DNA from: Escherichia phage vb_EcoM-VR5
Sequence record: NC_028881.1
Strand: one strand, 5' to 3'
DNA length: 64,000 bases
Below, in pieces: positions 3,012 through 43,014 of this stretch; the stretch's first letter is position 1, and the number at the start of each line of letters is the position of its first letter. The translations under genes were made by a program, and so were the position numbers. The notes below the pieces were generated by a model. The model saw only the letters and a program-made list of their open reading frames with translations, searched no databases and was not told where the DNA came from.

Positions 3012-4829
3012 TTACGACATCCAAGCCTTACGAAGCTGTGGGTCGTTTCCAAGGAGCATTTCGAACTGGTCTTTCCAATCTTCAGGTAATTGGACTACAT
3101 CAAATTTAGGGTCTTGAATCATTCGGCGGTATTCAGCTTTCTCAAGAGAACCGAGACCTTTGATATAACGAATAGAATGTTTAGGCAACTTATCCTTAGC
3201 TTCATTATAAGACGGAACATCATAGAACCATTCCTGTTCTTTACCAACCTGCGCAATAATTACCGGAGTTTTACAGAAACGAATTCGTCCCTGTTCGAAC
3301 AATTCAGGCCATTGGCTAAAGAAGGCTAATAACGAAGGATAAATCGAACCAGTACCATCCACATCAGCGTCAGTCATGATAGCGATATTATGATAGTTGG
3401 TTTTATTTGCAGGTTCGCCAATAATTAATCCTGTGATTGCACAGATATCAAATAGTTCCTTGTTCTTCATGATATCAGCAGCAGTCATACCCCAGGTATT
3501 CATAACCTTACCGCGTAATGGATAACCACCTTGGAGGTCTTTATTACGAACTTCAATGAAAGGACCCATTGCAGAATCACCTTCGGTTAAGAACAGAGTC
3601 GTATCAGCATCTTTGCCGTACATATTGGCTTTAATATGCTTATGGACCTTGGCTTTAGAAGCTTTCTTAGCAGCTTTAGTTTCGGCTGCCTTTTCAGCTG
3701 CTAATTTACGTGCTAAAGCGGCTTCGATAATAGGCATAATCAACCCATCAACTTTAAGAATAGCTTGAGCAATTTTCTTAGCATCAATTTGGATATGATT
3801 ACGAATCTCGCCAAATGGAGAGGTCAAACGTTCTTTAGTCTGGGAATCAAAACGCATATTGCTCATATCACGAATGAACATAACCATAGTAAGGCATTCT
3901 TTAACACGGGCCTTGGTTACTTCGATTCCACGATATTTCTTTTTAATACCTGGCAGAAGGTGCTCACAAATATCATCGAATACACATTCAACATGGTGGC
4001 CGCCATTCTTAGTATGGATATTGTTTACATACGTCAGTTGACGGAACCCGTCCGGAGAAGGAGTAAATGCCATCGAAACGTTATCAGTTTCTTGGATTAC
4101 AAAGTCTTCACCAAATTGCTTAGCATACTTTTTAAAGTTACCATCTACTTTTTTACCGTTAAAAGTAAATTGGATATCCGGATAAATTACGGCCAGTGTT
4201 TGAAGTCGGTCTAATGTAATATCCAGATAAATTTGTGACAGACTATTTTCTTCAAAATGATTAAAGTCTGGGGTGAATACAACCGAAGTACCTTTACCTT
4301 TAGATTTCTTGGTAGACCAACCTTTGTTTTCCATTCCATTGGAACAGTTAACTGTAATCTCATTCTCGCCATCAGAGGTGATGCCTGTGAACAAAACAGA
4401 GAAGATATTAGTTAAACTACTACCGACACCATTCATGCCGCCTGTCTTACGCTCTGCGTCATCTCCAAAGTTACCACCAGCCTTTGGAATAGTCCACGCA
4501 GCTACAGGGCCCGGAATCTGTTCACCGTTTTGATCGGTAACCATTGCTTGAGGAATACCACGGCCATTATCAGAAACTGAAACCTGGTTATTCTTAATTT
4601 GGACATCAATTTTATTTGCGAATTTAAAGCTTGTACGAATAGCTTCATCCACAGAGTTATCGATGATTTCGTCAATCAGTTTTACCAGCCCAGGAACATA
4701 GTTGACCTGAGTAAAATTACCGAACAGAAAACGTCCGTGAGCTTCATTAGCACTTGAACCGATATACATCCCACTACGTTTTTTGATATGTTCAATGTCG
4801 GACAGTACTTTAATTTCATTCTTAATCAT
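3012..4829 (-). CDS. 39: DNA topoisomerase II large subunit (GyrB-like; fused gene 39+60 form)
   Basis: 605-aa ORF; GHKL ATPase and TOPRIM-type motifs; RBS GAGGAAA; length fits fused 39/60 as in phages lacking the gene 60 bypass. Confidence 0.9.
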   Translation of the reverse strand: MIKNEIKVLSDIEHIKKRSGMYIGSSANEAHGRFLFGNFTQVNYVPGLVKLIDEIIDNSVDEAIRTSFKFANKIDVQIKNNQVSVSDNGRGIPQAMVTDQNGEQIPGPVAAWTIPKAGGNFGDDAERKTGGMNGVGSSLTNIFSVLFTGITSDGENEITVNCSNGMENKGWSTKKSKGKGTSVVFTPDFNHFEENSLSQIYLDITLDRLQTLAVIYPDIQFTFNGKKVDGNFKKYAKQFGEDFVIQETDNVSMAFTPSPDGFRQLTYVNNIHTKNGGHHVECVFDDICEHLLPGIKKKYRGIEVTKARVKECLTMVMFIRDMSNMRFDSQTKERLTSPFGEIRNHIQIDAKKIAQAILKVDGLIMPIIEAALARKLAAEKAAETKAAKKASKAKVHKHIKANMYGKDADTTLFLTEGDSAMGPFIEVRNKDLQGGYPLRGKVMNTWGMTAADIMKNKELFDICAITGLIIGEPANKTNYHNIAIMTDADVDGTGSIYPSLLAFFSQWPELFEQGRIRFCKTPVIIAQVGKEQEWFYDVPSYNEAKDKLPKHSIRYIKGLGSLEKAEYRRMIQDPKFDVVQLPEDWKDQFEMLLGNDPQLRKAWMS

Positions 4830-4853
4830 GTTATTTCCTCATGTAGTGGAAGA

Positions 4854-4880
4854 ATTATATCCCAAGCTATTAAAAGCAAA
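4854..4880 (-). promoter_or_regulatory. MotA-box middle promoter upstream of gene 39
   Basis: TTTGCTTTTA box, 11-nt spacer, -10 TATAAT. Confidence 0.5.
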
Positions 4881-4896
4881 AAGGGCCGAAGCCCTT
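4872..4896 (-). terminator. rho-independent terminator (UUCG-loop hairpin + U tract)
   Basis: aagggc-ttcg-gccctt + TTTTTGCTTTT. Confidence 0.6.
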
Positions 4897-5164
4897 ATTC
4901 AAATCGAATGGTGGAGTTTTTGAACAGTAGCCCAGAGCACACGGTACCTTTAACAGTTTTACCTGTAGGACCGACAGCAATGAATCCTGTACGTTGGAAG
5001 TCATCTTCAGAACACCCAAACAAACTATAACCGGTGATTTGGATTTGCTCAAAACCATTGGCATTCAAAACCTTAGTAGCATTATCAGCGTCAGTACACC
5101 CGACCAGCGAAAAAGCAAGAACCAGTGCAGCAATAGTACGATTTACGTATTTCATATTTCTCAC
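4895..5164 (-). CDS. putative lipoprotein (89 aa)
   Basis: signal peptide with lipobox LVGC. Confidence 0.6.
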   Translation of the reverse strand: MRNMKYVNRTIAALVLAFSLVGCTDADNATKVLNANGFEQIQITGYSLFGCSEDDFQRTGFIAVGPTGKTVKGTVCSGLLFKNSTIRFE

Positions 5165-5334
5165 TTAAGCAGGTCGTAGAACCCGCCGTTAACATGTTTA
5201 GGAGCAGAGACTAGCCGAACAGCCAGCCGATGGCAATCAGGACAAACATCATTATCTCTTTCAGAGATTTTCTTGATTTTTTCGTATTCTTTCGCACAGT
5301 CTTCAGATTGGCATTTGTAATCATAAAGTGGCAT
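5161..5334 (-). CDS. FmdB-type zinc-ribbon protein (57 aa)
   Basis: hand-translated small ORF MPLYDYKCQSEDC...CPDCHRL with CxxC...CxxC; RBS AAGGAA; not in >=60 aa track. Confidence 0.5.
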   Translation of the reverse strand: MPLYDYKCQSEDCAKEYEKIKKISERDNDVCPDCHRLAVRLVSAPKHVNGGFYDLLK

Positions 5335-5335
5335 A

Positions 5336-5731
5336 TTATTCCTTAAAGTGTGCTTTCAACATCTGGAAAACTGACCAGGCTTCTTCATTATTACTAATGG
5401 TGATTTTAGTCAATGGGAATGCAGTGATTTCTGGAGCTTCAGTTTCTTCATCGTCAGGTACACCATCTTCAGCCCATTCTTCATCACAGTCAACTTCGAC
5501 CATTTCGGTAAAGAATTTACGCTCAGTGGGATATAAAATCATGTCTTTATTATCGCCATAAGCTAGGTCTACGTTAGTCACATTACCTGCTGTGATAGTC
5601 CTTGGACAAAAACCTTCAGCTTCAATAATAGCATCCGCTATACCGCTATTGTTGATAACTCTACGACGGAATTCCGCTTCAGACACCTCATCTTTAAAAT
5701 AATACCACTTACCAACTTCAAATTTAGACAT
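5336..5731 (-). CDS. hypothetical protein (131 aa; start trimmed to ATG with RBS GGAAGGAGA)
   Basis: ORF; track N-terminus overlaps upstream gene, internal ATG at 5731 has strong RBS. Confidence 0.6.
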   Translation of the reverse strand: MSKFEVGKWYYFKDEVSEAEFRRRVINNSGIADAIIEAEGFCPRTITAGNVTNVDLAYGDNKDMILYPTERKFFTEMVEVDCDEEWAEDGVPDDEETEAPEITAFPLTKITISNNEEAWSVFQMLKAHFKE

Positions 5732-5942
5732 TGTAAGTCTCCTTCCAGAAGTCTGGACCAATTGAACTGATTTCACGGAACACACCGTAAATAGGATTTT
5801 TATCATCTTGATTTTCGTACACATAAACTGAAGTCAAGTGAGAGCGAGCATCAGAGTGTTCTTTCTGTACTACAACCAAATCTGGATTGAACAGAACGTC
5901 TTCAAATTCTTCACGGGTCGAGTTCACGGTAACTTTAGCCAT
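5724..5942 (-). CDS. hypothetical protein (72 aa)
   Basis: ORF with RBS GAGGAAA; promoter motif upstream. Confidence 0.55.
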   Translation of the reverse strand: MAKVTVNSTREEFEDVLFNPDLVVVQKEHSDARSHLTSVYVYENQDDKNPIYGVFREISSIGPDFWKETYNV

Positions 5943-5967
5943 TTTATTTTCCTCATCTACACTTGTT

Positions 5968-6009
5968 TTTGATAGGGTAATCTTATCACTACCCTATCTT
6001 GTTGTACAC
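5968..6009 (-). promoter_or_regulatory. early-promoter family member (variant)
   Basis: GTGTAC ... TAAGAT with gatagggta/taccctatc inverted repeat. Confidence 0.4.
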
Positions 6010-6022
6010 TACTTTTTAAACT

Positions 6023-6589
6023 TTACGCACGATGAATATTAGCATACTCAACAATAAAGCTTTCAGGAACTACCTTAAAGGTTCCAGTGAATACGATGTT
6101 ATAAAGCTTAACACCTTCTTCAACCCACTGGTCGGTGATGTAGCCAGACATGCTAGTAGTTTCGTAAGTACCAAACGGTTCATCAGTGTATTCAAAAGGC
6201 TTAGGAGAAACGAAAAAGACACCAGCACCTAATTTCCATTTAAAATCAACACCAACATGAGACAGGTCAATGGTTTCAACTTCTTGAGCCACTACACCAC
6301 GAATATCATTGCTTTCGCACACATACCCATCGTGTGATTCAACTTCTTCAACCACAGGAGCGACACGTCCAGTAAATTCAGTTGATTCTAGGAATTTAGC
6401 ACGAACGTAAGCAAATTGTGTTTCTGTCTGACCATTTTTAGGAATAATACGTACTTTTACTTCAGCGTTTTCAAGTCTGACACCTTCTTTAAGTTGAATA
6501 CTAACAACTTCAACTAAACAGCCTGCGGCTTTTGAACGAGATTGTTTGGATACGCGAACGATACCGCCGATATCTGAAATAGTAATCAT
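6023..6589 (-). CDS. hypothetical protein (188 aa), C-terminal domain paralogous to next gene
   Basis: ORF; C-terminus ITDQWVEEGVKLYNIVFTGTFKVVPESF resembles C-terminus of ORF 6663-7412. Confidence 0.65.
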   Translation of the reverse strand: MITISDIGGIVRVSKQSRSKAAGCLVEVVSIQLKEGVRLENAEVKVRIIPKNGQTETQFAYVRAKFLESTEFTGRVAPVVEEVESHDGYVCESNDIRGVVAQEVETIDLSHVGVDFKWKLGAGVFFVSPKPFEYTDEPFGTYETTSMSGYITDQWVEEGVKLYNIVFTGTFKVVPESFIVEYANIHRA

Positions 6590-6620: not shown

Positions 6621-6660
6621 CCATGAGAGCCATTATAACATGGCTCTCGATAAAGTAAAC
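6621..6660 (-). promoter_or_regulatory. early promoter (-35 GTTTAC, 17 nt, -10 TATAAT)
   Basis: consensus hexamers; gagagccat/atggctctc inverted repeat around -10. Confidence 0.55.
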
Positions 6661-13379: not shown

Positions 13380-13533
13380 TATGTTTTCCTCTTCTTAGTT
13401 TACCTACTAAAGGGCCATCCGGAATTTTATTTTCCTGGATGTATTTCTCGTTTTCTTCCATCATTTTACTGCCAATTTTAAGAAGCAAATCCAGCGCCTC
13501 TTTAGCATGTGCTTCAGCTTCTTCAGTAGTCAT
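13366..13533 (-). CDS. small hypothetical protein (55 aa)
   Basis: hand-translated [18 protein letters not shown]...; ATGA overlap with upstream ORF stop; SD GGGGA. Confidence 0.4.
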
Positions 13534-13733
13534 GATTTATCCCCATAGATATCACGCATCAACTTAAGGGTGGAACGTTCAATACGTTTTTCGCGTTCAG
13601 CTTGAATACCATTAGCAGCCCATTCTTCAGCTTCGTTCTGCATTTCTTTGTTTACTTGGTCAACCCAACCATCGTCGATATACATACCACTCGGACGGTC
13701 TAACCAATCTTTAAGCCATGATAAAGGTTTCAT
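13530..13733 (-). CDS. hypothetical protein (67 aa)
   Basis: ORF. Confidence 0.5.
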
Positions 13734-14074
13734 TAATCACACGAGCCTGACGAAGAGTCACAGCTTCCTGAATCGTAAGAGGAATAAGATGAATCACCGG
13801 TCCATGAACTAGCGACAATTGCCGTAGTCACGATGGTAGAAGTATCCAAATCACTTCGGTTTCGCCGTTCATCTAAACGCATCCGTTCTAGACGCTCTTT
13901 TAATTTTTCTGAATTCAATGGAAGAGCATCATGCCCACGAACCCAGTCAGTAGGGCGAATAACTTCTTCCATCATACCATCGCCCATATAGACGTATTCC
14001 TTTTTAGGCGTGTTGATAGGAACCATACCTTGACCTGGGCTGGAAGCAAATAACTCTTTGAGCCACTTAAACAT
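13733..14074 (-). CDS. hypothetical protein (113 aa)
   Basis: ORF. Confidence 0.55.
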   Translation of the reverse strand: MFKWLKELFASSPGQGMVPINTPKKEYVYMGDGMMEEVIRPTDWVRGHDALPLNSEKLKERLERMRLDERRNRSDLDTSTIVTTAIVASSWTGDSSYSSYDSGSCDSSSGSCD

Positions 14075-18768: not shown

Positions 18769-18888
18769 TTATTCCTCGTCTTCGTATTCGCTGTCGCAGT
18801 CTAAACAGGTTGCGTTGTCCCAAGCATCAAATACTGCCTGTTCTTCACATACAGAACAACCACATACTACACATTCAAACTCTTCCAT
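18769..18888 (-). CDS. small Cys-rich protein (39 aa)
   Basis: hand-translated MEEFECVVCGCSVCEEQ...CLDCDSEYEDEE; RBS GAGGAAA. Confidence 0.4.
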   Translation of the reverse strand: MEEFECVVCGCSVCEEQAVFDAWDNATCLDCDSEYEDEE

Positions 18889-27224: not shown

Positions 27225-27370
27225 GATGGTTCCTTAATTAAAACATTCAAATTTGATTTGTAAGATTAACATTACCCAAGCCAAGATAAGAGTTGGAATC
27301 ATTGGTGGGACTGTCACTGCAAAATAAACAGTCATTAACACAAATATGAGTAAGAGTAAACCGGTTATAA

Positions 27371-27607
27371 TCATTGTTTAACCACGATAATCTGTGCGTT
27401 TGTTTTACGTTCGGCTGCGATAGACCAAATCAGTGCAACCACCCACCCAATCATCGTCCAACCTAACAGAAGGTTAAGCACAAAAATTCCACCATTGCTT
27501 CGAGTACCACGTAGTAATGCGATAATCCATGGTAAGAAATAACCGATGAACATAACAGCAAGAGAACCAATACCAAACACACCAGCACCGACGATTAAAG
27601 CTTCCAT
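27371..27607 (-). CDS. two-TM membrane protein, Imm-like
   Basis: 78-aa hydrophobic ORF adjacent to gene 43 as T4 imm. Confidence 0.5.
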   Translation of the reverse strand: MEALIVGAGVFGIGSLAVMFIGYFLPWIIALLRGTRSNGGIFVLNLLLGWTMIGWVVALIWSIAAERKTNAQIIVVKQ

Positions 27608-35493: not shown

Positions 35494-35743
35494 CGTTATA
35501 AGCATCCTTGATGCATGATTCGGCCATGTGGATTAATGTTTCTGGAGTATCATCTTCCATTACATTAAAACTAAATTCTACAGCCCAATCGGTAGCAACA
35601 TAAACTTTAATAAGCTCGTTGGTATCACGAGTGCTCACAGCTTCAAACCAGAACTTAATAATGTTCGTTTGGTTATCGTCATCGACAACCAGGCAGTCAT
35701 GTTCAAGCTCAAGGCCTGATTTTTTGAATTCATCTAAAGTCAT
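35480..35743 (-). CDS. hypothetical protein (87 aa)
   Basis: ORF between 47 and 46. Confidence 0.5.
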   Translation of the reverse strand: MTLDEFKKSGLELEHDCLVVDDDNQTNIIKFWFEAVSTRDTNELIKVYVATDWAVEFSFNVMEDDTPETLIHMAESCIKDAYNDEDF

Positions 35744-36762
35744 CGTGTAACCTCATTATAAAGTTGGGCAGCCATAGTCTTAAGGGCTTTAAGGTCATCT
35801 TCAGTATGGCCATCAGGAAGAGCATCGATATAATCATACATCATATCCAAGAGCGACTTAACTTCGTCTTCCTCTTCAGAATCATCAATATCAACGCTGT
35901 TATCTACCTTAGACACAATACGTAAAGAGTGGACCACCTTTTCAAGTTCAGATTCAAACTTAGTAAGCCCGTCATCGATTTTATCGACTATAACACGAAC
36001 TGCAATATTTGTAAAATCTTTGTAATCGATGGTTGCATTAGGATAATGAATCTTACGATGCCAACAGGTTTCATTGATAACAAAATCCATTTTATGGGTT
36101 TCAGTATCGAAAATCCAGAAACCGCGAGGGTCGTTCTCATCGCCTGCAGTAAGGGTCCATGGAGTACCGATGTACTTAACGTTTGCGGCATCAGAAATAG
36201 TATGGAAGTGGCCAGACCAAACTTGCTTATACTTTTTAAGGAAATCAGGTTCTAAACCGTGAGATTTCATTCCTTTATAGAAATAGAACCCATTTAATTC
36301 CCAGTGACCAATACAGAAATCTGCTGTAGTATTTTTGATATGTTCCATGATATCAGTCGTGTTTTCTTCACACATCCACGGAATCAAATCAATTTCGGTG
36401 CCATCAAAGTTTACTGTTGTAGGTTTCTCGATAACCTTGATATGGTCATATTTACCGAGAACTTCAGAAGCGGCATTCGGCGTTAAGGTATTTTTGTAGT
36501 GCATATCATGATTACCAACAACGGTATACATGGTAATGCCATTAGCTTTAAGCAAATCAGAGATTTCGCGAGCGAATTCCATACACTTATGGGTAATTGC
36601 TTTACGAACGTCAAAGATATCACCGTATTGAATCCATACAGTAATGCCATTTGCTTTAGAATAATCAATAGCGTCTTGGATACCTTGGCGTTGGATATTT
36701 TGTACCCACACATCATCGGCTTTCACTCCAAGGTGCCAGTCACCTGTGTTTAATATTTTCAT
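35740..36762 (-). CDS. 47: recombination endonuclease subunit gp47 (Mre11/SbcD-like)
   Basis: start at MKILNTGDWHLG (phosphoesterase motif); track ORF has 66-aa upstream extension. Confidence 0.85.
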   Translation of the reverse strand: MKILNTGDWHLGVKADDVWVQNIQRQGIQDAIDYSKANGITVWIQYGDIFDVRKAITHKCMEFAREISDLLKANGITMYTVVGNHDMHYKNTLTPNAASEVLGKYDHIKVIEKPTTVNFDGTEIDLIPWMCEENTTDIMEHIKNTTADFCIGHWELNGFYFYKGMKSHGLEPDFLKKYKQVWSGHFHTISDAANVKYIGTPWTLTAGDENDPRGFWIFDTETHKMDFVINETCWHRKIHYPNATIDYKDFTNIAVRVIVDKIDDGLTKFESELEKVVHSLRIVSKVDNSVDIDDSEEEDEVKSLLDMMYDYIDALPDGHTEDDLKALKTMAAQLYNEVTR

Positions 36763-36902
36763 AAGCCAAGCACCGTTATCGCAATGCAAAATAAAATTAT
36801 TGAAATGAACCCGTCTGGAGTGGAAAAGAATCCTATCCAACAAGCTCGTGTGAATGTGTAGAATGCCATGAATAACACGACATATCCTAAAAATAATTCC
36901 AT
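36759..36902 (-). CDS. small hydrophobic peptide (47 aa), translationally coupled to gene 47
   Basis: hand-translated MELFLGYVVLFMAFYTF...; RBS GAGGAGAA; stop overlaps gene 47 ATG (ATGA). Confidence 0.45.
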   Translation of the reverse strand: MELFLGYVVLFMAFYTFTRACWIGFFSTPDGFISIILFCIAITVLGL

Positions 36903-36922
36903 ATGTTCTCCTCAGTTGGTTC

Positions 36923-36949
36923 ATTTTATCATCCCGAATATAAAGCAAA
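36923..36949 (-). promoter_or_regulatory. MotA-box middle promoter upstream of 47.1-like ORF / gene 47
   Basis: TTTGCTTTA box, 12 nt, -10 TAAAAT. Confidence 0.45.
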
Positions 36950-36970
36950 AAAGGAAGCACTAGGCTTCCT
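36941..36970 (-). terminator. rho-independent terminator upstream of gene 47 region
   Basis: aggaagc-ctag-tgcttcct + TTTTTTGCTTT. Confidence 0.55.
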
Positions 36971-37133
36971 TTCCAATTAATACACCGTACAGAGGTTCAC
37001 GATTAGACGTGAACTTGATGGGTTTATAGGTAATAGTACCTTCATTTTCTGCTTTAATACGAGCGGCTTCAAATTGAAGCATCATCTCATTTTTGTCAGA
37101 TTTAATCTTATCAAAATCCGTCGAACTCGTCAT
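36960..37133 (-). CDS. small hypothetical protein (57 aa)
   Basis: hand-translated MTSSTDFDKIKSDKNEMML...; SD AAGGGG; stop overlaps terminator hairpin. Confidence 0.35.
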   Translation of the reverse strand: MTSSTDFDKIKSDKNEMMLQFEAARIKAENEGTITYKPIKFTSNREPLYGVLIGKEA

Positions 37134-41048: not shown

Positions 41049-41260
41049 TCTTTCACCTTCAGCATTTTTGCGATAACACTATGAATAGCCTGGATACGTT
41101 TGTTGAACTCAGACTCTTCAAGACCCTTTTCAGTACTCAGCCATCCGATGATAACAAACAGCAATCCGAACGGAATAGCCAGGATTAAAAGGCACACGAT
41201 AAACAAGACCAGTGTAATGTTAGCCAGAATATCAGAAGCAGCATTACGAAAATTATTCAT
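41045..41260 (-). CDS. small membrane protein (71 aa)
   Basis: hydrophobic ORF. Confidence 0.55.
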   Translation of the reverse strand: MNNFRNAASDILANITLVLFIVCLLILAIPFGLLFVIIGWLSTEKGLEESEFNKRIQAIHSVIAKMLKVKE

Positions 41261-41385
41261 AGGATAACCCAGGTATTATTGACAACAAATAACCATAGAG
41301 CTGGATACTCTACACCCATACGACGGATAATATCATTCATAGCTTCAGTTAGAGCATAGAACGTGTAACCATAAAAATTAATCAT
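41257..41385 (-). CDS. small hypothetical protein (42 aa)
   Basis: hand-translated MINFYGYTFYALTEAMNDIIRRMGVEYP...; ATGA overlaps with gene 49 stop and next ORF start. Confidence 0.35.
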   Translation of the reverse strand: MINFYGYTFYALTEAMNDIIRRMGVEYPALWLFVVNNTWVIL

Positions 41386-41885: not shown

Positions 41886-42066
41886 ATTTATTAAATATTA
41901 TAAAACGAGCGATGCAACCGTTTAAATTGTCGAATCATCTTTTTAGTAGGATGAGTATATAATCCTACGCAGGTGACCATAAACCGGTCAGTAGGACTTC
42001 CTTTGATAAGAAGTTTCCAGACCTTACCACCATTTAACTTTTCGGTATAGACTAATACAGTTTTCA

Positions 42067-42240
42067 TTAGAACGCCTTATCAGAAAAGCGAAGTTGAGCT
42101 TCAAGCCAATGGATATAATCAGCCGCGGCAAAAATTAAATCAGATTCTTCATCAGATAACTTACGGGAATCCGACAGCTCGTAAAGAGAATGTTCAATCA
42201 GACGACCTTTATGTCGGCCAACTTCAATTTTGGTACTCAT
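42067..42240 (-). CDS. small hypothetical protein (57 aa)
   Basis: hand-translated ORF with SD ACGGAG; low certainty. Confidence 0.3.
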   Translation of the reverse strand: MSTKIEVGRHKGRLIEHSLYELSDSRKLSDEESDLIFAAADYIHWLEAQLRFSDKAF

Positions 42241-42356
42241 ACCCAAACTCCGTATCGATTAATTCATTGTTTGAAGGTTCATTATACTCTATTTCGGAAT
42301 CGTTGTAAACCGGTTCCTCTGGCTCGGTAGTTTCCCACCGAGCGACATACCATGGC

Positions 42357-42665
42357 TTAACGGTCACACCACCAACTACTTACTTCAAAATCGGGTTCAC
42401 CGTCTTCCCAGAACCAGGGGCCAACCGGATGCCAATCGCCATGCTTATCTTCTTCATATTCTTCAGATTCAAGTCCAACGTATTGCCATTGGACTTCATA
42501 AGCAATGTCGCCGATTACAACAGTGTTCTCGCCATACGGGTTAGCCACAACAAAGTCAATACCTTCTGCTTTAGCCAACCAAACCATGTATTCATATAGC
42601 TTATATTCTAGGTCATCTTCGGTACCGTCACCTAGAAAAATGGTCTGTTCGTTTAATTCAATCAT
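42357..42665 (-). CDS. hypothetical acidic protein (102 aa)
   Basis: ORF. Confidence 0.55.
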   Translation of the reverse strand: MIELNEQTIFLGDGTEDDLEYKLYEYMVWLAKAEGIDFVVANPYGENTVVIGDIAYEVQWQYVGLESEEYEEDKHGDWHPVGPWFWEDGEPDFEVSSWWCDR

Positions 42666-42850
42666 AATTCCACCATAAATTCAAATAGCTGGTCACGTAC
42701 ACAAGTATCAGTCCAACCCCATTCGTTGGCTTCTTCTTTTAACCAATCCGGGAGATTTGCCAATACGATTTCTTTACTAGGCGCAGGAGTATCAAACTCT
42801 CTTGCAAACTCTCTTGCGCAGGTTTCATAAGCTGTATCAAATTCGGTCAT
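42662..42850 (-). CDS. hypothetical protein (62 aa)
   Basis: ORF, ATGA-coupled. Confidence 0.5.
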   Translation of the reverse strand: MTEFDTAYETCAREFAREFDTPAPSKEIVLANLPDWLKEEANEWGWTDTCVRDQLFEFMVEL

Positions 42851-43014
42851 TTAAAGTTCCAGAATGAAGCACCAACCAGAAATAAAGGCCAACAAATCAT
42901 AGACGTCAGCCACCAACAAAAATCACCTACACCGAAATCATCTAATTTAGCTAGGGTCTTAGCATAACCAATACCGATGATAATATACAAAACACCCAAC
43001 ATTAATTCAATCAT
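42847..43014 (-). CDS. small membrane peptide (55 aa)
   Basis: hand-translated MIELMLGVLYIIIGIGYAK...; ATG overlaps nrdC stop, stop overlaps next ATG. Confidence 0.4.
   Translation of the reverse strand: MIELMLGVLYIIIGIGYAKTLAKLDDFGVGDFCWWLTSMICWPLFLVGASFWNFK

What the first reader, a model, noticed from the sequence alone, without database searches (positions are those of the whole stretch)
5161..5334. Translationally coupled small genes missing from the 60-aa ORF track
Hand translation found several sub-60-aa ORFs with SD sequences and ATGA or TAATG overlaps with neighbours: a 57-aa FmdB-type zinc ribbon (5161-5334), a 39-aa Cys-rich peptide (18769-18888), a 47-aa membrane peptide coupled to gene 47 (36759-36902), a 42-aa ORF coupled to gene 49 (41257-41385) and a 55-aa membrane peptide coupled to nrdC (42847-43014). 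Small membrane and zinc-binding peptides in phage early regions are frequent host-takeover or anti-defence factors.
Basis: seen in the sequence. Interest (0 to 1): 0.4.

Follow-up and report, generated by a model that had tools for sequence, protein, structure and literature searches.

The report
Known small early genes of T4-like phage
The five short reading frames are real, conserved small genes of a T4-like phage that a 60-codon cut-off hid. All five belong to small-protein families already catalogued from related phages, and the flagged zinc-ribbon gene is the counterpart of T4 gene 39.2, a published modulator of the host GroEL chaperone, so the finding is correct but ordinary.

Summary
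All five sub-60-aa ORFs exist at the stated coordinates, all on the minus strand, in a T4-like (Dhakavirus/JS98-like) phage. ORF length alone is not significant. The decisive evidence is from relatives: only the named frame stays open in all of them, indels are multiples of three, variation is concentrated at third codon positions, and dN/dS is 0.02-0.5.

- 5161-5334 is the orthologue of T4 gene 39.2 (NwgI). It is about 89% identical to the frame-restored 58-aa T4 protein, sits in the same goF-39.2-39.1-39 order, and scores above the curated cut-offs for the FmdB zinc-ribbon family. Published genetics describe T4 Gp39.2 as shifting host GroEL towards its open, GroES-accepting state.
- 36759-36902 is T4 gp47.1, a predicted membrane peptide.
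- 18769-18888 is a very acidic Cys-rich peptide directly after dmd. It is restricted to Dhakavirus-like phages.
- 41257-41385 is "VR7 gp080-like" and 42847-43014 is "VR7 gp088-like".

All five match existing PHROG families and are annotated in at least some GenBank relatives.

Stop/start overlaps or abutments are present and conserved, but they are the norm in these genomes, and coupling itself is untested.

Verdict: a threshold artefact, already known, low interest.

The parts
5161..5334 (-). 57-aa FmdB-family zinc-ribbon protein, orthologue of T4 gene 39.2 (NwgI). Cysteines at C8, C13, C31 and C34.
   Evidence: ORF. (PF09723 and TIGR02605 above cut-off). (894 phage records). (VR25 note 'similar to T4 gp39.2', 100% aa identity). 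(T4 locus; about 89% identity to the frame-restored 58-aa T4 protein). (dN/dS 0.02-0.04). (C8, C31, C34 invariant and C13 at least 90% conserved in 32 viral homologues).
5340..5344 (-). Shine-Dalgarno AAGGA, 5 nt before the 39.2 ATG. The goF stop TAA lies at 5336-5338.
   Evidence: sequence.
5336..5731 (-). goF homologue, immediately upstream of 39.2. It overlaps cef (5724-5942) by 8 nt, as in VR25.
4895..5155 (-). 39.1 homologue, immediately downstream of 39.2, with an N-terminal lipoprotein-type signal ending in LVGC.
6632..6659 (-). Sigma-70-like promoter match (TTTACT-16-TATAAT with TG) upstream of motB. Candidate start of the motB-cef-goF-39.2-39.1 early unit.
   Evidence: This is a consensus match only; the total number of matches in the region is no higher than in shuffles.
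4881..4896 (-). Terminator-like GC hairpin plus T run just after the 39.1 stop.
18769..18888 (-). 39-aa Cys-rich, highly acidic peptide (net charge -14, no Lys or Arg). It abuts the dmd stop (TAAATG) and is followed by 61.4 and sp.
   Evidence: (phrog_13952, E=9e-23). (46 records). (always dmd, this ORF, then a 61.4-like/unnamed small ORF and sp in six relatives). (46-aa form elsewhere; dN/dS 0.03-0.4). (one true representative cluster).
36759..36902 (-). 47-aa two-segment hydrophobic peptide, orthologue of T4 gp47.1. Its stop overlaps the gene 47 ATG (ATGA). The SD is GAGGAG.
   Evidence: (phrog_6693, E=3.5e-31). (annotated 47.1 in JS98 and T4). (600 records). (dN/dS 0-0.2). (hydropathy).
41257..41385 (-). 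42-aa ORF between gene 49 and 55.8, with ATGA overlaps on both sides ('VR7 gp080-like').
   Evidence: (phrog_3350, E=4e-22). (58 records). (annotated in ESCO10, FB, VR26, VR7). (37-42 aa variants; dN/dS 0.08-0.19).
42847..43014 (-). 55-aa two-segment hydrophobic peptide directly after nrdC, with ATGA overlaps on both sides ('VR7 gp088-like').
   Evidence: (phrog_6756, E=4.5e-30). (71 records; 'putative transmembrane protein' in phage 55). (annotated in ESCO10, VR25, FB, VR26)..

Best explanation
The five ORFs are ordinary, bona fide small protein-coding genes in the early, variable gene clusters of a T4-like (Dhakavirus-type) phage. A 60-aa ORF threshold hid them, and for 47.1 so did an artefactual upstream extension of gene 47.

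The flagged one (5161-5334, minus strand) is the orthologue of T4 gene 39.2 (NwgI), a 57/58-aa four-cysteine FmdB-family zinc ribbon.

Shown here: its orthology, its family membership, purifying selection, and its position in a candidate motB-cef-goF-39.2-39.1 transcription unit with its own SD, 2 nt after the goF stop.

Inferred from published T4 work: early in infection the peptide acts on the host GroEL/GroES chaperonin. It shifts GroEL towards the open conformation that accepts its co-chaperonin (host GroES or phage gp31). This lets the phage grow on hosts whose GroEL would otherwise not support it.

The other four:
- gp47.1 is a small inner-membrane hairpin peptide. Its stop overlaps the gene 47 start.
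- The 55-aa peptide after nrdC is a second two-segment membrane peptide. With no real SD, it is probably translated by re-initiation at the nrdC ATGA junction.
- The 42-aa gene 49/55.8 peptide and the 39-aa acidic Cys peptide after dmd are lineage-restricted accessory genes of unknown target.

The tight stop/start junctions are the normal packing of these polycistronic early transcripts. They probably permit termination-reinitiation.
For: - Existence and junctions.
- Phage identity: 90-93.5% nt identity to Dhakavirus ESCO10 and JS98 over 20 kb.
- Coding status: only the named frame is open in all relatives; in-frame indels only; third-position excess and dN/dS 0.02-0.5.
- Known families: all five hit PHROG families at E from 1e-11 to 1e-31.
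- GenBank annotations: VR25 'similar to T4 gp39.2'; JS98 and T4 '47.1 predicted membrane protein'; VR7 gp080 and gp088 homologues.
- 39.2 family membership: PF09723 at 44 bits (cut-off 34.4) and TIGR02605 at 45.5 bits (cut-off 31.3). The four Cys are conserved in 32 viral homologues.
- 39.2 orthology: about 89% identical to frame-restored T4 Gp39.2, in the same goF/39.2/39.1/39 order.
- 39.2 function: PMC5153855 and PMC4396842 summarise Ang & Georgopoulos 2012 (PMID 22234860). Gp39.2 is a 58-aa peptide that shifts GroEL to the open, GroES-binding state, and a T4 39.2 deletion is blocked on specific groEL mutants.
- Expression: T4 39.2 and 47.1 transcripts are classed as early (PMC9697503 Table S2).
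- Hydropathy of the two membrane peptides.
- Promoter-like and terminator-like sites bracketing the unit.
Against: - Nothing was measured for this phage. The GroEL role is transferred from T4 by orthology (6 of 57 residues differ), and the primary paper could not be read here.
- T4 Gp39.2 and Gp47.1 proteins were not detected by mass spectrometry in PMC9697503 (Class_P = NA). Small and hydrophobic proteins are often missed, and the T4 reference 39.2 sequence is truncated.
- Zinc binding and the ribbon fold were not confirmed. The AlphaFold2 model was unusable (pLDDT 46), and no solved structure matches the family specifically.
- The first cysteine pair is CX4C here rather than the family's usual CxxC.
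- Translational coupling is inferred only from geometry.
- The functions of the other four peptides are guesses from composition and position.
Confidence: 0.85

Rival explanations
1. The 57-aa zinc ribbon is what RefSeq calls it, an 'FmdB-like transcriptional regulator'. On this reading it binds nucleic acid or RNA polymerase and tunes early or middle transcription, alongside its neighbours motB, goF and cef.
For: - The RefSeq and PHROG labels.
- Membership of the FmdB family.
- Zinc ribbons often contact nucleic acids or polymerases; the profile gives weak matches to RpoP, Rpa12, TFIIS-type and ribosomal zinc ribbons (E of 0.05 or higher).
- Neighbouring genes act on transcription or RNA.
Against: - The label is a propagated family name. 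As far as I know there is no direct evidence of regulation for phage members.
- The only experimental work on the T4 orthologue points to GroEL.
- The PDB matches are not significant, and the top ones are C2H2-finger motif artefacts.
- There is no DNA-binding domain in 57 residues.
Confidence: 0.08
2. Some or all of the small ORFs are anti-defence factors. The best candidate is the 39-aa hyper-acidic Cys peptide that abuts the antitoxin gene dmd, which could be a DNA or protein mimic or a partner of Dmd. The two membrane peptides could be superinfection-exclusion or abortive-infection blockers.
For: - cys39 always lies directly after dmd and upstream of sp (spackle), with a 61.4-like or unnamed small ORF between them, in six relatives.
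- It has net charge -14 and no basic residues.
- It is lineage-restricted, with one true representative cluster among 1.84 billion proteins, as expected for arms-race genes.
- Other T4 ORFans in these variable regions modify host proteins (PMC4396842).
Against: - No homology to any characterised anti-defence protein.
- No Pfam or NCBIfam hit.
- Position next to dmd may simply reflect dense packing.
- For 39.2 a different host target is already documented.
- Nothing here tests defence systems.
Confidence: 0.12
3. The ORFs are chance open frames or non-coding spacers, and the apparent conservation merely reflects closely related genomes.
For: ORFs of 39-57 codons are common by chance in this sequence: P = 0.02-0.06 each, and 417 runs of at least 39 codons on the plus strand. 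No protein evidence was found for T4 39.2 or 47.1.
Against: - Synonymous divergence is large (dS 0.5 to more than 2) while dN stays at 0.3 or below. Variation is concentrated at third positions, and all indels are in frame.
- The sense frames other than the named one carry stops in all or nearly all relatives.
- Profile matches reach E from 1e-11 to 1e-31.
- Published genetics exist for T4 39.2.
Confidence: 0.02

Closest known systems
Bacteriophage T4 Gp39.2 (NwgI), GroEL/GroES modulator (Ang & Georgopoulos 2012, PMID 22234860)
   Same: About 89% identical over 57 residues to the frame-restored 58-aa T4 protein. It has the same four cysteines and the same C-terminal SAPKH..GFYDLLK tail. It sits in the same position between goF and 39.1/39 and on the same strand, and the T4 counterpart is transcribed early.
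   Different: Six substitutions and one residue shorter. No functional test was done in this phage. The T4 RefSeq entry shows only 45 aa because of a one-base frame shift in the reference sequence.
FmdB-family zinc ribbon (Pfam PF09723 Zn_ribbon_8; NCBIfam TIGR02605 CxxC_CxxC_SSSS)
   Same: Scores above both curated cut-offs. It has the N-terminal MPxYxYxC motif, a second CPxC knuckle, and an 'SAP' segment followed by a Gly-aromatic tail.
   Different: The first knuckle is CX4C (C-QSED-C) rather than CxxC in the T-even clade. The family's 'regulatory protein' name has, to my knowledge, no experimental basis for phage members. The one tested phage member acts on a chaperonin.
[quoted passage not shown]
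   Same: 82% identical to T4 gp47.1 and 96-100% identical to the Dhakavirus homologues. It has the same ATGA overlap with the gene 47 start and two hydrophobic segments.
   Different: 47 aa against 46 aa. The upstream neighbour is a-gt.2 rather than a-gt. The function is unknown in every phage.
VR7 gp080-like and VR7 gp088-like hypothetical proteins (phrog_3350, phrog_6756) and phrog_13952
   Same: The window's 42-, 55- and 39-aa ORFs match these profiles over essentially full length. They occupy the same slots: 49/55.8, after nrdC, and after dmd.
   Different: In-frame length variants occur (37-42, 53-55 and 39-46 aa). Several RefSeq records (JS98, IME08) do not annotate them. No function is known.

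Membership tests
T4 Gp39.2 / NwgI orthologues | Full-length sequence similarity to T4 Gp39.2 | tested here: met
   tblastn gives 91% identity over residues 1-44 of the T4 RefSeq entry and 84-100% over 1-57 in other Tevenvirinae. After restoring the T4 frame, 51 of 57 residues are identical.
T4 Gp39.2 / NwgI orthologues | Conserved genomic position: goF, 39.2, 39.1, 39 on the early strand | tested here: met
   The window order matches VR25, T4, JS98 and IME08 annotations.
T4 Gp39.2 / NwgI orthologues | Modulates GroEL/GroES: suppression of groEL/groES alleles, and the deletion mutant blocked on specific groEL mutants | not testable with these tools
   Known only for T4, via PMC5153855 and PMC4396842. 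From my recollection of the abstract of PMID 22234860, the same was reported for RB69, RB43 and RB49.
FmdB-family zinc ribbon (PF09723 / TIGR02605) | Profile score above the curated threshold | tested here: met
   PF09723: 44.0 bits against 34.4. TIGR02605: 45.5 bits against 31.3.
FmdB-family zinc ribbon (PF09723 / TIGR02605) | Two cysteine pairs (CxxC...CxxC) able to bind one zinc ion | tested here: inconclusive
   Four Cys are present and conserved (C8, C31, C34 invariant; C13 at least 90%), but the first pair is CX4C here. Metal binding cannot be tested. The AlphaFold2 model was unusable (pLDDT 46), and no specific PDB relative was found.
T4 gp47.1 | Sequence similarity plus a stop codon overlapping the gene 47 start | tested here: met
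   82% identity to T4 and 96-100% to the Dhakavirus homologues. The ATGA junction is conserved in six relatives.
T4 gp47.1 | Membrane insertion | not testable with these tools
   Only hydropathy is available: two segments with mean Kyte-Doolittle values of 2.1 and 2.9.
Translationally coupled gene pairs | Upstream stop overlapping or within a few bases of the downstream start | tested here: met
   ATGA at 47.1/47, 49/orf42, orf42/55.8, nrdC/tm55 and tm55/next gene. TAAATG at dmd/cys39. TAA+1 nt at goF/39.2. These junctions are conserved in relatives.
Translationally coupled gene pairs | Downstream translation depends on translation of the upstream gene | not testable with these tools
   Needs nonsense mutants or reporter fusions. 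Four of the five ORFs have their own SD, so dependence is not required. Only the 55-aa ORF lacks one.
Anti-defence / host-takeover small proteins | Similarity to a characterised anti-defence protein, or a demonstrated effect on a defence system | tested here: not met
   No Pfam or NCBIfam family for four of the five. Their PHROG families have unknown function. 39.2 targets a chaperonin according to the literature. A functional effect cannot be tested here.

The most novel reading that the evidence does not exclude
The 39-aa hyper-acidic, Cys-rich peptide (18769-18888), which abuts the stop codon of the antitoxin gene dmd in every relative examined and is confined to Dhakavirus-like phages, is a new zinc-binding anti-defence or mimic protein. 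It would work with or alongside Dmd against host toxin or nuclease systems. Along the same lines, the two membrane peptides could be new superinfection or abortive-infection modulators.
Probability: 0.1. Interest if true: 0.5.

Novelty: already known. Interest (0 to 1): 0.15.

Why it matters
Mainly as quality control.

- A 60-aa ORF cut-off hides at least eleven conserved genes in this 64-kb window: the five reported plus six more.
- Several reference annotations are incomplete or wrong at these loci. JS98 and IME08 omit three of the five. T4 RefSeq truncates 39.2. ESCO10 product names are out of register with their CDSs.
- The flagged zinc ribbon carries the database label 'transcriptional regulator', although the only experimental work on its T4 orthologue describes it as a GroEL chaperonin modulator. 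Correcting that label is useful.

No new biology is revealed. The remaining four peptides are still uncharacterised phage ORFans of modest interest.

Tried and rejected
- AlphaFold2 on the 57-aa protein with the only admissible alignment (6 close sequences) gave pLDDT 46 and pTM 0.24. The model is unusable, so no fold search was run.
- A PDB sequence search with the single protein found nothing. A 32-sequence profile gave only C2H2-finger motif artefacts and non-significant zinc-ribbon hits.
- The primary paper (PMC3296260) and the T4 genome review (PMC150520) are not held. I relied on secondary accounts.
I used GenBank relatives instead.
- The distant viral homologues of 39.2 all share MPLYDYKC partly because that peptide was a search seed, so conservation of that motif is not independent evidence.
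- I considered that the C-terminal GGFYDLL might mimic the GroES mobile loop (GGIVLTG). I set this aside because the alignment shows the tail corresponds to a Gly-aromatic motif also present in the more distant viral FmdB-family homologues.
- An exhaustive search with the 39-aa peptide found one true cluster plus low-complexity acidic repeats.
- ORF length as evidence was rejected, because such lengths are common by chance.

Full report
**What the window is.** The region carries topoisomerase gene 39, goF, cef, motB, dmd, sp, genes 46/47, 55, 49 and nrdC, almost all on the minus strand. A 20-kb stretch is 90-93.5% identical to Dhakavirus phages (ESCO10, JS98 and others). It is therefore the early half of a T4-like (Straboviridae, JS98-type) genome.

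**Checking the observation.** All five ORFs are at the stated coordinates, on the minus strand.

| ORF | Upstream junction | SD | Downstream junction |
|---|---|---|---|
| 57 aa (5161-5334) | goF TAA, one base, ATG | AAGGA, 5 nt upstream | TGA, 5 nt, 39.1 ATG |
| 39 aa (18769-18888) | dmd TAAATG | GAGGA | TAA, one base, 61.4 ATG |
| 47 aa (36759-36902) | 57-nt gap | GAGGAG | ATGA overlap with gene 47 |
| 42 aa (41257-41385) | ATGA overlap with gene 49 | GAGGA | ATGA overlap with 55.8 |
| 55 aa (42847-43014) | ATGA overlap with nrdC | none convincing | ATGA overlap with next gene |

The description is accurate apart from three points:
- The strand was not stated.
- Two of the five abut their neighbours rather than overlap them.
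- One has no SD.

**Is it more than chance?** Length alone is not persuasive. With this composition an open run of 39-57 codons has probability 0.02-0.06, and the mostly non-coding plus strand holds 417 such runs. Comparative evidence decides the matter:
- tblastn finds the five peptides in 894, 46, 600, 58 and 71 phage records.
- In relatives fetched for codon analysis, every length difference is a multiple of three: 57/58/59, 39/46, 46/47, 37/41/42 and 53/55 aa.
- Only the named frame is free of stops in all sequences, apart from one antisense frame of the 39-aa ORF.
- Variable sites pile up at third positions: 13/11/43, 5/7/25, 20/7/34, 18/11/25 and 7/4/14.
- dN/dS is 0.02-0.5, with dS often above 0.5.

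The stop/start junctions are conserved too. These are real protein-coding genes.

**The flagged ORF (5161-5334).**
- It passes the curated thresholds of Pfam Zn_ribbon_8 (44 bits against 34.4) and NCBIfam TIGR02605, the FmdB family zinc ribbon (45.5 against 31.3).
- VR25 encodes an identical protein annotated 'similar to bacteriophage T4 gp39.2'. IME08, JS98 and T4 name the gene 39.2, in the same goF-39.2-39.1-39 order.
- T4 RefSeq lists only 45 aa. An extra T (GCT TCC TAA, where relatives read GCT CCT AAG) shifts the frame. Removing it restores a 58-aa protein that is 51/57 identical to the window's.
[quoted passage not shown] - PMC4396842 gives the same account. Both cite Ang & Georgopoulos, Genetics 2012 (PMID 22234860), which I could not open.
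- C8, C31 and C34 are invariant and C13 is nearly so across 32 viral homologues. In the T-even clade the first pair is CX4C.
- A promoter-like site (6659-6632) and a terminator-like hairpin (4896-4881) bracket motB-cef-goF-39.2-39.1.
- In T4 the 39.2 transcript is early, and the protein was not detected by mass spectrometry (PMC9697503 Table S2).

The 'FmdB-like transcriptional regulator' label in RefSeq and PHROGs is a propagated family name. The only experimental evidence concerns GroEL.

**The other four.**
- 36759-36902 is T4 gp47.1. It is 82% identical to T4 and is annotated 'hypothetical predicted membrane protein' in T4 and JS98. It has two hydrophobic segments. The ORF track hid it partly because gene 47's frame stays open upstream to a GTG at 36960, giving a spurious 406-aa ORF. 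The true gene 47 starts at the ATG at 36762.
- 42847-43014 is a second two-segment hydrophobic peptide ('VR7 gp088-like'; 'putative transmembrane protein' in phage 55). It is annotated in VR7, VR20, VR25, VR26, ESCO10 and FB. In JS98 and IME08 the downstream gene is over-extended across it instead.
- 41257-41385 ('VR7 gp080-like') fills the gene 49/55.8 slot, where VR25 (and, per the T4 gene coordinates in PMC9697503 Table S2, T4) carries nrdD-nrdG. It is annotated in VR7, VR26, ESCO10 and FB but not in JS98 or IME08.
- 18769-18888 lies directly after dmd and upstream of sp, with a 61.4-like or unnamed small ORF between them, in all six relatives fetched. Dmd's identity is confirmed by phrog_2102.
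  - It has six Cys, five of them conserved, a net charge of -14 and no basic residue.
  - An exhaustive search of 1.84 billion representatives found a single genuine cluster, so it is a Dhakavirus-restricted ORFan.

All four match PHROG families of unknown function. None hits Pfam or NCBIfam.

**Coupling.** Four-base overlaps are routine in these genomes: 11 of the 46 junctions in the JS98 stretch are ATGA-type. The geometry is therefore real but unremarkable. Dependence of downstream translation on upstream translation is untested. It is most plausible for the 55-aa ORF, which lacks an SD.

A gap scan plus PHROG search shows at least six further conserved sub-60-aa genes in the window:

| Coordinates | Identity |
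|---|---|
| 2808-2969 | PHROG family of unknown function |
| 27234-27374 | hydrophobic (predicted membrane) peptide; PHROG family of unknown function |
| 36960-37133 | a-gt.2 |
| 41891-42067 | PHROG family of unknown function |
| 42067-42240 | PinA-like Lon inhibitor |
| 42224-42367 | 49.1 |

**What failed.**
- The AlphaFold2 model of the zinc ribbon was unusable (pLDDT 46).
- PDB searches gave nothing specific.
- Two papers were not held.

**Verdict.** The genes are real, small, early and tightly packed. But they are already catalogued, and the flagged one has a published function as a GroEL modulator, which is neither anti-defence nor transcriptional regulation. Novelty: already known. Interest is low (0.15). 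The least excluded novel reading is an anti-defence role for the dmd-adjacent acidic Cys peptide (probability about 0.1).

Noticed in passing
L003:1203-1340 (T4 NC_000866 5702-5839): T4 RefSeq annotates 39.2 as 45 aa. One extra T relative to all relatives shifts the frame, and removing it restores a 58-aa protein. That length matches the one given by Georgopoulos. The extra base is either a reference-sequence error or a strain mutation.
   Followed up: partly
window 4895-5155 (-): The 39.1 homologue begins MKYVNRTIAALVLAFSLVGC, a lipoprotein-type signal peptide with a lipobox cysteine. This suggests a phage-encoded lipoprotein right after the GroEL modulator gene.
   Followed up: no
They include a-gt.2, 49.1 and a 57-aa PinA-like Lon protease inhibitor.
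   Followed up: partly
window 5000-5480: Local mosaicism. This stretch (39.2 and most of 39.1) is 93-98% identical to Gaprivervirus VR25 but 67-95% identical to Dhakavirus JS98. The flanks show the opposite pattern.
   Followed up: partly
window 35740-36960 (-): An ORF-track artefact. The listed 406-aa GTG ORF is gene 47 (true ATG at 36762, 340 aa) extended upstream in frame. This extension masks 47.1.
   Followed up: yes
L002 (JS98 NC_010105) 13518-13864; L088 (IME08) 790-1130: JS98 and IME08 RefSeq do not annotate the 53/55-aa peptide after nrdC. Instead they extend the downstream gene (orf81/orf77) across it in another frame. They also lack the 39-aa and 42-aa homologues.
   Followed up: yes
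L074, L083 (ESCO10 OM386655): Product names in this GenBank record are out of register with the CDSs. For example, the 42-aa ORF is labelled 'single-stranded DNA-binding protein' and gene 47 is labelled 'anti-restriction nuclease'.
   Followed up: no
window 41257-41385 compared with L075 (VR25) 3692-6088: The 42-aa ORF occupies the gene 49/55.8 junction, where VR25 (and, per the T4 gene coordinates in PMC9697503 Table S2, T4) carries nrdG-nrdD. VR25 lacks the small ORF, so the two look like alternative occupants of one variable slot.
   Followed up: partly
window 18769-18888 compared with L079-L083: The Cys-rich peptide is 39 aa here and in Yersinia phage P8, but 46 aa (with an extra ...FAHKHEGEE tail) in other Dhakaviruses. 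The fourth cysteine (C14) is replaced by Ser or Tyr in two relatives.
   Followed up: partly
window 4881-4896 (-) and 6632-6659 (-): A GC hairpin with a T run lies right after 39.1, and a 10/12 sigma-70-like promoter with an extended -10 TG lies upstream of motB. Together they bracket a five-gene early unit.
   Followed up: no
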